A stretch of 64,000 nucleotides of DNA, from assembly GCA_964016885.1 (NCBI GenBank), contig OZ024742.1:278938001-279002000 (forward strand). The letters are read 5' to 3'. Position numbers and translations under genes: made by a program. This DNA comes from Eledone cirrhosa (lineage: Eukaryota). Shown here in pieces: positions 5,219 to 46,145 of this stretch. Within the stretch, counting starts at the first letter, position 1. Every line of letters starts with the position of its first letter. Under the pieces are notes generated by a model. The model did no database searches. It had not been told where the DNA came from and saw only the letters and a program-made list of their open reading frames with translations.

Positions 5219-5410
5219 GAAAATGTAAAACCCCGACGGCAGAGCTCAAGCCGTTTCGACGGCTATTTCAGTCCATAAATAGCCGTCGAAACGGCTTGAC
5301 CTCTGCCGTCGGGGTCTTACATTTTCCTATTACCCACTCTACTACCCTAAGTATTGAGTACTCTGGTGCGTTATGGTCCATCTAGTTCCTTACCACAAGT
5401 CCTTCGTTAT
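5219..5410 (+). mobile_element. ~135-nt short element with 5' fold-back (copy 1)
   Basis: Inverted arm 5219-5269, filler AGTCCAT, forward copy 5277-5410 ending CCTTCGTTAT into (AT)n; homologous to five other loci in the window. Confidence 0.8.
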
Positions 5411-6604
5411 ATATATATATATATATGTGTGTGTATGTGTGTATGTGTGTGTATATGTGTGTGTGTGTATGTGTGTGTGTGGGGGGGGGGGGGTATTTGT
5501 TCGCTTGTCTTGCATCGAATACGCATTGAGCATACTGCCCCCTTCACTACTGGCATATAATTCTCATAAGTAAGCCCTTATCTCTCCTCCTCGATAAGTT
5601 TGTATGCTTGTATGCATAATTTATATATATATATATTCTAGTTTCCCTTTAACAAATCATATGCGACGACCTTTATGGGGTACCGCCATTCATCAGCCTG
5701 TTGATATAAGATCCTTAACATGACGGAAAAGGCTTCTCTACTATAATTGTACTATCGCATCATACCATACATTATTTTGAAAACATAAATAGAACCTGAA
5801 AAATATTAGTTTAAAACTATCAACCGTCAATAAAATTTCATTTCGTTTTGGTTTTCTTGAATTTGTATTTTTTTATTTATTGTTTTCATTCTAAACGGGT
5901 CAATAGCTGATCTTATCTTTCGAATGAAAACATAATCCATTGAATAGCAATGTCAAGACGATTCTGTATTTTTATAAAGGTGGAGAGGTGAACAGGGTGA
6001 AGATGCGACAAACGAAGCTGGATCATTCTTTGAGTGGTTGTTGGCATGTTGTAAAATATATCTAAATGGATCTTATGGAATAACGTTTAGCAGTGCTTAT
6101 GGTAAGATGGTAATATTTGTGGCTTGTAGTTTGTGAATTGTGGTTTGTGGTTTCTTGTCAAAGAAATCTGGTGTGTGGTCTCATTTTGTCATTTTGACAG
6201 GGGAATAATTTTATCAATAGACAGTACGTGTCATGTATTTTTATATGTATGTATACATATGCACGTATACACACACACACACACACACACATATATATAT
6301 ATATATATATATATATAGTGGGAGAGAGAGAGAGAGAGAGAAAGAGAGAGAGAGGGAGAGAGAGATATGTACATATACATATATATGTATACAAACACAC
6401 ATATATATATATATATATATATATATATATATATATATATATATATATATACGAATATATATATAGGCGTATAAATATGTATATGTGTGTGTTTATATGT
6501 GTGAGTGTTTGTGTGAGTTTCTGCGTTTGCGGCTATATGTGTACGTATGTGTGTGTGTGTGCGTGCGTATGTGTATAGAGCTATTTGAAAAGGAAAACAG
6601 ACAG

Positions 6605-6793
6605 AAAGAGAGAGAGAGAGGGAGGGATATATATATATATATATATATATAGAGATAGATAGATAGATAGATAGATAGAGAGAGAGAGAGAGAGGGAGAG
6701 AGAGAGAGAGAGAGAGAGAGAGAGAGAGAGAGAGAGAGAGAGAGAGAGAGAGAGAGAGAGAGAGAGAGAGAGAGAGGAAGATAGATAGATAGA
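6605..6793. repeat. (GA)n/(GATA)n/(AT)n microsatellite
   Basis: Directly visible. Confidence 0.95.
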
Positions 6794-7090
6794 TTTTAAG
6801 AGAGGGATTCAGATGTTTTCATTTGATATCAACGACATCAATCAAACATACAAATATGTTGAGATTATCAGCCGTCAGCAATGGTTTAAGTTATGTAGTA
6901 GAGTAAAAAGACAAAACAAAGCAAAGTAAAACATAACCAAATGGCTGTCTTAATGATGGAGTTACATTTGGCCAATGGCGGAGTAAAATTTGCACATGGA
7001 CATACTTCTTTTCCGCACAACCATGTTTCCTGTCTTCTTCCTTATATTTACTTTATCATCAGTATCTTAATCACTCGCTCACCCACTCAC

Positions 7091-7213
7091 TCTTCTTCTT
7101 CTTCTTCTTCTTCTTCTTCTTCTTCTTCTTCTTCTTCTTCTTCTTCTTCTTCTTCTTCTTCTTCTTCTTCTTCTTCTTCTTCTTCTTCTTCTTCTTCTTC
7201 TTCTTCTTCTTCA
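7091..7213. repeat. (TTC)n microsatellite
   Basis: Directly visible; the poly-Ser and poly-Glu ORFs are artefacts. Confidence 0.95.
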
Positions 7214-8799
7214 CTACCATCTACTACCACCACTACCATCATTATCATTATGTTCATCATCATCATCAACAGCAATGTCATAATTTTATTGGTGTTGTTG
7301 TAGTTATGCTGATTGGTTGTAAATTACGTTAGTAATATCCTCCTGATATCTACGACCACCATCACTTCCTTCACCATCAACTTCATCCTTCACCCCCTTC
7401 TTTTCTTTACACCTCTTCCTCATCGCTGCATCTCCGAATGCCAACAACTGAATAATTACCACAGCATGATAATTACATATCCTCCTCATACTTTCCAAGT
7501 CCAAATCCCTATGCATTCGATTATAGTTCTATTACATTCTATACTTCTATCCATGGTGTTGAATGCCATAATCTATCAATTGCCGTAGAACAGGATACTG
7601 AGTTCAAACTTAGTGACACCTGAGATGGGGTTACCTTCTGAGTGTTGCATGTCCATAAAATAATTTGCCGAATTCTACTAATTTTAGGCTCGATCTCGAT
7701 ATACAAACTACCAATCCCAAAACGTAGATAATTTGGATAGTTAGAACGATCGTCAGAAATGATGCCTCGTATATATTTTTCAGCTCTTTTCATTCTGAGT
7801 TCGAATTGTCCATCTTACTGGGATCCTATCAATAAAAGTTGACTTGCAGCATTTCTTCCAGCTTTTTATATTCTGTGTTCAAATTTTTCATCTTACTTAA
7901 ATCCTGTCTTAAAAAAAAAAAAAAAATTGATATCTGTACTGTCATTTACTTTTCGAATTCAAAATTTCAATCATACTGGAATGTTATCAATAAAAGGGTG
8001 TCATGCCTCAGCTGTTCAAGCTATTTACGTTCTGAAGTCAAAACTTCCAATTTAGTAGTATCTCCTAAATAGTAATGTTATAGCACAGCGCTAACTTCTT
8101 GTCAATTTCTAGAAATAGTGAAATCCTATGAAACTGCAATGGAAAAAGATAAACCACAACGGAGCCGATCGTCAGATCGGACAAAGAAAGTTATCCGTCA
8201 GGAAACTATCCCGACATATATGCAATGAACTCACAGGTCTACAATGATGTCTGTAGTCAAATATGGAGGGTTCATAAGCGCGTTATGAGGAGGGAGATTT
8301 CGACAGGAATTTAAATATGTTGTGATTGAGTAACGATTTTGATACATCAAAAATGGATATGGAACCTGAATATATTTCCAGTATTTTATATATTTTATTG
8401 AATTTTAAGAACATAAATGCCTCATCTCTTTTCCCAGCCTGGCCATTCTGATTTGAAACCCCATCGGTGCTAATTTTTACTGCCCACCAGGAAAAAAAAA
8501 AAAATTCTTGTTATGGTAAAATCAATGAAACATTCTAGAAATGACAATGTATTCTTTTTAAATACGATCAAAAAATTCAATGCGAACTTCCATTATAATC
8601 CTCCTCCTATCTAATTCCTGTTCATGTTCTTCCTTTTCCCTCTTCTTCTTCTCTTCCGTCTCCCCCTCCTCCCACAATTTCGCTGTCAATTTGAAAATGC
8701 AAATGAGGTAGTTCTGGTATCATTCGGCTGAAATCGGTAGGTTAGGTCTTATCCTACCGATTTCAGTAGACACAATGAAACTGACCTACTACCATTTAT

Positions 8800-8922
8800 G
8801 AGACAAAGTGTCGATTCAGCGCTGGACAGGCTATTAAGTGTATGATTTTCTCAGTCCGCTTGCTTACAGGGAAGCGGGTGCAACTGTACCAGATATTTGT
8901 GGATCTTACTAAAGCCTTCGAA
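8800..8922 (+). pseudogene. Decayed RTE/BovB-like reverse transcriptase fragment
   Basis: Translates to ETKCRFSAGQAIKCMIFSVRLL...LYQIFVDLTKAF, resembling the QCGFR..MIFS and FVDLTKAFD RT motifs. Confidence 0.55.
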
Positions 8923-43896: not shown

Positions 43897-45169
43897 ATAT
43901 ATATATATATATATATATATATATATATATATATAATCACATACGCACTTATGCACATATATACACGTATATGTGTATATATGCATACAAATATATCATA
44001 CTTATAAACTTCTGTATACATTATTTTATATATTTACATATATATTTATTCATGCGTTGGGATTATTTGCATACTTCGATATTAATTTTGTTGTATTTTT
44101 ATTTTTTCATTTTTTTCATTCCCCACCTAAAGAAGGTATCTTTCTTTTCCATATCTCAGCCATTAGGTATACAGAAAATTCAAAGGCATTGAAAGTATTA
44201 CGAGACGTATCTGTATAGATCTTTCTGCAAAAAACGACAGCTAATCACACACAAATATATATACTTATACATACACACATACATATATATAAATATATAT
44301 ATATATATATATATAATAAAATGGGGAGAAAAATACTGCTGGTAGCACATGGATAACATGTAATAAAATATATATATATATATATATATATATGTAGATA
44401 CATATATATATAAATATATATATATATATGTATGTGTGTGTGTGTGTGTGTATATACATATTTGTATATATTTATTCAGAAAAAAAATACAAGCTATGGA
44501 TATTACTCGTATCCTTATGTAAATATGCATACAGATTTCTGAACGAGAATTTACAAAAATATCTCACAGGAAAGGTTGAGAAAAATAGACGAGAGTGTTG
44601 TGTAGCTACAACCTGTAACATTAAACGGAGAAAACTTCTCTTAGGAATGGTTTACAATTTCACCGTCCCTCGTATCCTATTGAAATCATGAAACCATTGG
44701 TTACACATAGTTTATCGTGTATTGGAATGATGAGAAATAAATATTAACTCTGTTTGTATATATAAAACTCTCTTTTTCTTGATATTCTCATAACACATTT
44801 TATACATGCGCGCACACACACACACGCACATGTACAAAACACATACACGCACACACATACAACACACACATCCGCATGCACATGTGTATGCATAGTTACA
44901 AACATGCTTAAAACAATCACTCGTAACACAGGGAAAAAATATTCAAAATAAAGACAAACCACAAACATTGTCAATACTAAGAACAGGAACAATATCAACA
45001 ACAGGCAACAACAGGATGGACTATTTGTATGACGATTGCATGCAGCATTCAGTCGGATAAAACAACATTTTTCTTGGATTCTTTTTTCAACCTTCCACAA
45101 TGAAACGTTATAACTGATATCTATATAATGTATGGAGGGTAAAAAGTATACAATAAGTATTTATATGTA

Positions 45170-45779
45170 TGCATGTATATATATATACAAATATGTGTAT
45201 ATATATATATATATATATATATATATATATATATATATATATATATATATATATATGTATATATATATATATATATATATATATATATATATGTATATAT
45301 ATATATATATACATATATATATATATATGTATATATATATATATATAGGAATCTACTACCTCAAGTATTGAGTACTCTGGTGCGTTATGGTCCACCTGGC
45401 TCCTTACCACATTTCCTTCGTTATATATATATATATATATATATATATATATATATATATATATATATATATATATATATATATTTCCATATATATATTT
45501 ACATATATATATATAAATACATATATATATATATATACATATATATATATAAATACATATATATGTATACATATATATAAATACATATATATATATATAT
45601 ATATATACATATATATATACATATATATATATATATATATATACATATATATATATACACATATATATATATATATATATATATATATATATATATATAT
45701 ATATATATATATATATATATATATATATATATATATATATATATATATATATATATATATATATATGTATATATATATA
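45170..45779. repeat. Long (AT)n tract with embedded insert
   Basis: Directly visible. Confidence 0.95.
45348..45425 (+). mobile_element. 3' half of the ~135-nt element (copy 5)
   Basis: TCTACTACC..GTATTGAGTACTCTGGTGCG..CCTTCGTTATA in (TA)n. Confidence 0.75.
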
Positions 45780-45824
45780 GTGACCAAACATAAGTCAATT
45801 GCATGAACTCATAATCCTTTATTT

Positions 45825-45880
45825 ACTGCTATATATATTTCGATGATGGCCATTGAATGGATATGACCTTATCAGGCAGT
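45825..45880 (-). ncRNA. Variant hammerhead motif
   Basis: ACTGC-CTGATAA-GGTCA...TGGCC-atcatc-GAAA-TATATA-TA-GCAGT; G8>A change and a bulge; lies in a (TA)n-flanked insert 45780-45967. Confidence 0.5.
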
Positions 45881-46009
45881 TAGTCAGTTCTTAGATATGC
45901 CAGCTCTGTGTTTATGCAGTTGATGGTATCAGAGCCTTGGAACATATATTTATATGGAGTCCAGAAATATATATATATATATATATATATATATATATTC
46001 TGGATTTCC

Positions 46010-46145
46010 GAAATAGCCGTCGAAACGGCTTGAGCTCTGCCGTCGGGGTCATACGTTTTCCTATTTACCACTCTACTACCCTAAGTATTGAGTAGTCTAG
46101 TGCGTTATGGTCCATCTGGTTCCTTACCATAATTCCTTTGTTATA
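46010..46145 (+). mobile_element. ~135-nt element, unit-length copy 6
   Basis: GAAATAGCCGTCGAAACGG...CCTTTGTTATA. Confidence 0.8.

What the first reader, a model, noticed from the sequence alone, without database searches (positions are those of the whole stretch)
5219..46145. ~135-nt element with a fixed 5' end that inserts as a fold-back in (TA)n
Seen: six copies (5219, 33429, 34141, 42949, 45348, 46010) all end ..CCTTYGTTATA in (TA)n. Five have an arm starting at GAAATAG(C/A)CGTCGAAACGG. Four carry an inverted 5' duplicate ending near TTTTCCTA, with a different inner junction each time. Known: a short inverted arm plus a longer tailed arm is the Penelope insertion signature. I see no pol III boxes, ORF or CUGANGA. 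ACGGC can pair with an upstream GCCGU or a downstream GCCGUC; the latter mimics hammerhead stem III plus GUC. Inference: a small structured RNA with a defined 5' end, mobilised in trans by a PLE, possibly half of a split ribozyme.
Basis: partly seen in the sequence, partly recalled or inferred. Interest (0 to 1): 0.75.

Follow-up and report, generated by a model that had tools for sequence, protein, structure and literature searches.

The report
Penelope stubs ending at RNA start
These short mirror-image inserts in TA repeats are copies of the front end of a very abundant Penelope-type jumping gene, not a separate small RNA, and they likely form when both cut DNA strands copy the element's RNA from two fixed internal points and run off its start, which is predicted to lie inside the element's own hammerhead ribozyme.

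Summary
The six copies are real, but they are not an independent small RNA. They are pieces of an autonomous Penelope-like element (PLE) with Hydra-clade protein motifs, a unit of about 3.1 kb and at least 12,555 copies. In tandem copies the 135 nt run straight on into the ORF, so they are its 5' leader. Inner ends are not random, but they pile up at -4 to -7 (64 of 122 arms), not at GAAATAG (10 of 122); 6 of 90 copies read through into the parent. Best model (0.65): two reverse transcripts, one per target strand, start before two similar RNA hairpins, run off the transcription start and are joined head to head. No RNA data were available, so the start site and cleavage are untested. The architecture and two start sites are published; the run-off is not in the papers I found. 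This scan noted the same on other DNA.

The parts
5216..5269 (-). Copy 1, inverted short arm (+54 back to +1)
5270..5409 (+). Copy 1, tailed long arm, starting at the family boundary -6 and ending at +134 in (TA)n
33430..33555 (-). Copy 2, tailed long arm (+134 to about +9)
33556..33609 (+). Copy 2, short arm (+1 to +54)
34141..34194 (-). Copy 3, inverted short arm (+54 to +1)
34195..34308 (+). Copy 3, tailed long arm (+21 to +134)
42950..43083 (-). Copy 4, tailed long arm (+134 to +1)
43084..43109 (+). Copy 4, short arm (+29 to +54)
45346..45351 (-). Copy 5, 6-nt vestige of the short arm beginning at the +54 site (too short to be certain)
45352..45423 (+). Copy 5, tailed long arm (+63 to +134)
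45998..46004 (-). Copy 6, 7-nt inverted scrap matching +3 to -4 (too short to be certain)
46008..46143 (+). Copy 6, tailed long arm; 46010 = +1. Holds the 3' half of the predicted hammerhead (stem II 3' strand, GAAA at 46022, stem III, GUC site after 46044) and bulged hairpin 1 (from about 46070)

Best explanation
The inserts are head-to-head copies of the 5' leader (pLTR) of an autonomous Hydra-type Penelope-like element, and they likely arise when its enzyme cuts both strands of (TA)n, starts one cDNA at +134 and one at +54 of the element's own RNA, and both run off a likely transcription start at about -6 before being end-joined. Shown: parent, junction with the ORF, two fixed outer ends, one-of-each pairing, the inner pile-up, (TA)n targets. 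Inferred: that -6 is a capped Pol II start; that the two bulged hairpins 4-6 nt past each outer end position the enzyme; that joining is host microhomology repair; that the stubs are dead ends; that long copies come from read-through transcripts of tandem units, which alone hold the whole hammerhead.
For: Parent with RT (YRDD) and C-terminal GIY-YIG uses the same two outer ends (L062; L020). Tail continues into the ORF in L065, L075, L076, L084, L088, L089. Of the first 90 of 12,555 tail matches: 82 of 90 meet TA at one position; by eye 70 short+long fold-backs, 1 long+long, 6 read-through, 10 without inverted arm, 3 other. Of 29 insertions anchored at +54: 24 short+long, 1 long inverted arm, 1 short+short, 3 unpaired (by eye). 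Stop rate per base 0.26-0.33 at -5 to -7 against 0.05-0.08 at +1 to -3, in both arms; 15 of 30 arms that pass -9 run on through the whole hammerhead. 6 of 70 fold-backs have a long arm that lacks the short arm's template and 16 of 90 have both arms at -5 or beyond; two have arms from different subfamilies (L138, L052). Base at -7: T 5,884 (parental, by subtraction), G 2,622, C 1,862, A 329. In vitro a PLE cleaves and extends both strands and starts at two internal sites bounding the tail (PMC11167929); Penelope's promoter lies in the pLTR (PMC2377424).
Against: No RNA evidence for the start site. The cap-G signal is weak once G's templated by the other arm are removed (10 of 31 G, 7 of 26 C, 15 of 31 A unexplained; scaled about 850, 500, 160). 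The boundary is a peak over -4 to -9, not one base, and 29 of 122 arms stop at +1 to -3. The TATA-like word 31 nt upstream varies between subfamilies and doubles as stem II. PMC11167929 saw no difference in start site between strands, so strict one-of-each use is not reproduced in vitro. Deletion at palindrome centres after insertion could make some junctions. Samples are the first matches on one contig and favour younger copies.
Confidence: 0.65

Rival explanations
1. Snap-back: one cDNA starts at +134, reaches the RNA 5' end or the stem II region, folds back and copies itself to +54 (self-priming on an antisense template, as proposed in PMC3846280).
For: Arms of one insertion are more alike than arms of different insertions (mean edit distance 1.44 against 3.33; 21 of 50 identical); junction microhomologies and templated repeats are common.
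Against: 6 of 70 long arms lack the short arm's template; both arms peak at -5/-6; either arm can be the more complete; L138 and L052 have discordant arms; +54 serves as an end without any tail (L167/L168); inverted arms of about 250 and 750 nt begin at the same +54 site.
Confidence: 0.12
2. Twin priming as above, but the -6 boundary is an enzyme stall or RNA processing site at the inner hairpin of loop II rather than a transcription start.
For: A 7-bp hairpin is predicted with its 3' strand at about -9 to -3; no RNA data exclude it.
Against: The stronger stem II strand (+2..+10) and stem III are passed by most arms (63 of 90 long arms reach +1); the same boundary appears by eye in a subfamily with a different loop; the base at -7 is G eight times more often than A.
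Confidence: 0.13
3. One reading: a separate ~140-nt RNA with its own gene, mobilised in trans by the PLE, acting as half of a split ribozyme.
For: Most copies are short with a defined 5' boundary; they carry the 3' half of the hammerhead; one locus holds a tandem 257-nt leader unit (L209).
Against: Sequence is identical to the parent's leader; stubs lack hairpin 2 and the sequence upstream of -6; RNA starting at -6 is predicted to fold an alternative hairpin (P 0.93) with stem III at 0.06 or less; the 257-nt junction occurs at 1 locus only (2 matches).
Confidence: 0.05
4. Ordinary random 5' truncation of cDNAs started in the 3' pLTR, with later collapse of long palindromes to a stable centre.
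For: PLE insertions are known to be heavily 5'-truncated with inverted copies (PMC8557442); 6 of 90 copies are longer and variably truncated.
Against: Stop rate jumps from about 0.06 to about 0.3 per base within three bases and falls near zero beyond -13 (genome counts); copies without an inverted arm also stop near -6 (L095, L097, L098).
Confidence: 0.05

Closest known systems
Hydra clade of C-terminal EN+ Penelope-like elements (Craig et al. 2021, PMC8557442; abstract, passages, section 11 and supplement rows read), e.g. Hydra-1_Obim
   Same: Single ORF with RT then GIY-YIG; DKT, CxCX5C linker, no CCHH, CxxC and CxH around E and N; (TA)n target; hammerhead in pLTR; inverted 5'-truncated copy plus one-sided tail. 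Motif blocks resemble Hydra-1_Obim by eye.
   Different: A different family: three motifs of this element are absent from the supplement. Hammerhead has a U3-A8 core, long stem II and 5-bp stem III, unlike the CUGAAGA minimal type listed for Hydra-1_Obim. Tail is 80 nt, not 30-40. RWR instead of RWK; unit about 3.1 kb.
PAc Poseidon element of Anolis (Frangieh et al. 2024, PMC11167929; main text parts 1-2 of 4 read)
   Same: Two internal RT start sites bounding the tail, downstream of the hammerhead at the pLTR-ORF junction; both target strands cleaved and extended; AT-rich target; uncleaved RNA is the template.
   Different: There the sites lie in the ORF and in one AC-rich stem-loop, with no strand difference seen; no fixed 5' run-off or one-of-each pairing is reported in the parts read.
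U3-A8 minimal hammerheads of Schistosoma Cercyon PLEs (Cervera and De la Pena 2014, PMC4209133; parts 1-2 of 4 read)
   Same: Type I hammerhead in the pLTR with the U3-A8 core covariation; opposite-strand pairs near each other; palindromic loop 3.
   Different: Here stem III is a full 5 bp and loop II holds the 5' boundary of the stubs.
L1 twin priming (recalled; search listing only)
   Same: Two target strands prime on the RNA and the cDNAs are joined head to head by microhomology.
   Different: L1's second primer anneals at variable sites and the arms do not overlap; here both starts are fixed and the arms usually copy the same 60 nt.
Animal non-LTR retrozymes (10.64898/2026.07.22.740005; part 1 of 5 read)
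   Same: Short, non-coding, pLTR-related, PLE-dependent.
   Different: Retrozymes are tandem units each with a whole hammerhead; these stubs are single fold-backs with half of one.

Membership tests
EN+ Penelope-like element | Single ORF with RT and GIY-YIG endonuclease | tested here: met
   RT motifs QFDIES and LYRDDG, EN motifs VIYQ / YIGL / R / H / E / N read in L062, L067, L072, L079. Pfam gave no hit above cut-off, so this rests on motifs compared with PMC8557442.
EN+ Penelope-like element | pLTR formed by partial tandem, inverted 5' copy, one-sided tail | tested here: met
   L062, L084, L089, L076, L088
EN+ Penelope-like element | Hammerhead motif in the pLTR | tested here: met
   U3-A8 core in 34 of 37 read-through arms (selection partly requires it), position 7 free (A 17, C 12, G 6, U 2); 95% of cells paired against 32-57% slid
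Hydra clade | DKT, CxCX5C linker, no CCHH, CxxC/CxH around E and N | tested here: met
   against section 11
Hydra clade | RWK motif; length generally under 3 kb | tested here: inconclusive
   RWR found; unit about 3.1 kb summed
Hydra clade | (TA)n insertion | tested here: met
   90 of 90 tails meet a TA-type run within 14 nt of the anchor
Hydra clade | Placement in the RT phylogeny | not tested
   No tree was built; reference proteins were seen only in the supplement text
Type I hammerhead ribozyme | Three stems around the conserved core with NUH site | tested here: met
   Full pLTR folds as a three-way junction, z -2.28, stem II P 0.56-0.98, stem III P 0.71-0.90; the MFE partly mispairs the core
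Type I hammerhead ribozyme | Covariation or Rfam match | tested here: inconclusive
   Covariation not above shuffles (168/500); Rfam found 0 hits in the window, which holds only the half motif of this family
Type I hammerhead ribozyme | Self-cleavage | not testable with these tools
   Only 2 of 90 long arms start at +35..+37, so cleaved RNA is not a main template
Non-LTR retrozyme / SINE-like trans element | Tandem units each with a complete hammerhead, or an own promoter and source gene | tested here: not met
   Stubs lack the 5' half of the core; tandem 257-nt unit at one locus only

The most novel reading that the evidence does not exclude
A PLE dimer makes each insertion as two cDNAs, one from each of two hairpin-marked start sites and each on its own target strand, and its promoter is placed inside hammerhead loop II. 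Promoter-started RNA then carries only half a ribozyme and yields ~140-nt run-off stubs, while only read-through RNA from tandem units carries the whole ribozyme and yields long copies. The stubs would be a genome-wide fossil 5' RACE that explains the inverted pLTR, the one-sided tail and the need for tandems in one mechanism.
Probability: 0.45. Interest if true: 0.75.

Novelty: new member of a known kind. Interest (0 to 1): 0.52.

Why it matters
How PLEs, the sister group of telomerase, make inverted pLTRs and one-sided tails is stated as open (PMC8557442, PMC11167929). Thousands of short copies with fixed outer ends, one-of-each pairing and a fixed inner boundary give base-level predictions: start site at -6, two cis hairpins, two cDNAs per event. 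They also warn that such stubs can be misfiled as SINEs, MITEs or small RNA genes in repeat libraries.

Tried and rejected
Rfam on the window: 0 hits. Pfam on four ORF pieces: nothing above cut-off; PDB sequence search: nothing significant. GAAATAG as 5' end: rejected. Splice acceptor at the boundary: unlikely, because arms usually keep the AG and no shared upstream exon appears. Hammerhead cleavage as the 5' end: rejected, 2 of 90 near +36. MITE/TIR element: rejected, arms are unequal and the parent has RT. 257-nt mini-element as a family: one locus. Cap-G test: weak. First automatic parse over-extended across junctions and mis-scored some inverted arms; ends were re-scored ungapped (which under-scores L140 and misses L147) and classes counted by eye. 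One search used a mis-registered structure and is superseded. A direct genome-wide count of short+short, short+long and long+long pairs was not obtained; the ratio rests on the two samples. Hits of L030 to the window proved to be flank, not the parent; tblastn found no piece of this ORF in the window. Literature searches found no paper describing run-off at a PLE start site or one-of-each use; subscription papers and bioRxiv supplements are not covered, and figure supplements of PMC11167929 were not seen.
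Full report

Observation. Four have a clear inverted arm ending at +54, with different junctions. Copy 1's long arm begins at 5270, six bases upstream of +1. The family is abundant in this 3.0-Gb genome: 12,555 exact matches to a 31-nt tail word and 0 to the reversed control; only 1 of the 6 window copies matches that word exactly, so the true number is probably several times higher (inference).

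The parent. Among the 30 best matches, L019, L020 and L030 continue upstream. L062 is a textbook PLE insertion: (TA)n, an inverted pLTR of about 750 nt starting at +54, then RT, GIY-YIG, 3' UTR and the same tail. In L065, L075, L076, L084, L088 and L089 the tail is not followed by TA but runs on to the ORF start about 90 nt further. So the 135 nt are the pLTR and 5' leader of an autonomous element, and +134 is an internal point of its RNA. The protein has DKT, a CxCX5C linker, no CCHH and CxxC/CxH motifs, the Hydra-clade marks in PMC8557442 section 11; this lead came from earlier scan notes and was checked here by motif only. The named relative in that paper's supplement is from an octopus, so the host is likely a cephalopod (inference).

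Outer ends. In the first 90 tail matches, 82 meet TA at one position. Counted by eye: 70 short+long fold-backs, 1 long+long, 6 read-through, 10 without inverted arm, 3 other. Anchoring instead on the +54 end (4,245 exact matches; first 30 = 29 insertions): 24 short+long, 1 long inverted arm, 1 short+short, 3 unpaired. Independent choice of start sites would make (short+short / mixed) x (long+long / mixed) about 0.25; the samples give below 0.001. Two internal starts bounding the tail, and cutting and extension of both strands, were shown in vitro for an Anolis PLE (PMC11167929). Similar bulged hairpins begin 6 and 4 nt past +54 and +134 (lead from note e1-8804728); the second lies outside the stubs.

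Inner ends. Of 122 arms covering +1..+10 (63 long, 59 inverted), 29 stop at +1 to -3, 64 at -4 to -7, 11 at -8/-9, 9 at -10 to -13, 5 at -19 to -35 and 4 pass -66; the stop rate per base is 0.26-0.33 at -5 to -7. Genome-wide exact counts fall from 24,297 (+1) to 10,697 (-6) to 3,766 (-9) (mutation adds some loss), and 15 of 30 arms passing -9 go on through the whole hammerhead. There are thus two populations: a majority ending near -6 and a minority reading through. The site reads TT-A-GT, an initiator-like word (consensus recalled), with TATTTAT 31 nt upstream in the main subfamily but variable in others. Penelope of Drosophila virilis has an internal promoter in the pLTR (PMC2377424, passages) and rotifer pLTRs have TATA/Inr-like words (PMC3846280, passages). 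A G at -7, expected from a copied cap, is 8 times commoner than A but only 1.7 times commoner than C after removing bases templated by the other arm: suggestive only. No RNA run was listed, which is no evidence either way.

The ribozyme. Position 7 takes all four bases in 37 read-through arms. U3-A8 is a known PLE variant (PMC4209133). Pairing is kept in 95% of cells but covariation is not above shuffles. The -6 boundary lies in loop II, so RNA starting there lacks the core's 5' half and is predicted to fold another hairpin. Only 2 of 90 long arms start near the cleavage site, in line with uncleaved RNA being the template (PMC11167929). Activity is untested.

Mechanism. Most likely (0.65): the promoter in an upstream pLTR starts RNA at -6; the RT-EN binds the leader, cuts both strands of (TA)n, starts cDNA at +134 on one strand and +54 on the other; both run off at -6; host end-joining trims and joins them, giving the variable junctions. 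Against snap-back: 6 of 70 long arms lack the short arm's template, 16 of 90 insertions have both arms at -5 or beyond, and L138 and L052 join arms of different subfamilies; for it: arms are mostly alike within an insertion (1.44 against 3.33 edits, 50 of 90 parsed), which a shared source RNA also gives. Long copies need read-through RNA from tandem units (inference).

Novelty. The element class, the inverted arm plus tail, the two start sites and the U3-A8 hammerhead are published. Five searches found no description of run-off at the start site, one-of-each pairing, or a promoter inside loop II. I held this reading before opening the scan's notes (note); those notes report the same pattern on other DNA of this genome and are not counted as support. 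Verdict: real, new member of a known kind, with a testable mechanism; interest 0.52.

Noticed in passing
window 20432-30851: A different PLE as two long head-to-head copies (about 4.9 kb, 97.6% identical) with an asparagine-rich insert, YVDD RT, GIY-YIG and a minimal CUGAAGA hammerhead at 20646(-), 24583(-), 30577(+); no tblastn match to the family studied here.
   Followed up: partly
window 43144-43422 and 52460-52839: Older (about 80%) fragments of that second family's pLTR; 43213 has a CUGAUGA hammerhead-like core.
   Followed up: no
L209:251-970: Short inverted arm followed by two 257-nt tandem units (-9 to about +248, ORF start included) and a final tailed unit; the junction is unique in the genome. 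L152 has a similar but different junction. Could record template jumps or a small circle.
   Followed up: partly
loci L001-L278, TA-flanked segments: 75 of 206 distinct TA-flanked inverted-repeat segments belong to other families, several with CUGAUGA cores; fold-back stubs are common to many families here.
   Followed up: no
L185, L190: Runs of 10-20 T directly upstream of the -6 boundary, not in the parent; possibly untemplated A addition to the cDNA end.
   Followed up: no
window 3887-4404 and 42760-42840: A 518-nt near-perfect palindrome (97.7%) and a shorter imperfect hairpin, unrelated to this family.
   Followed up: no
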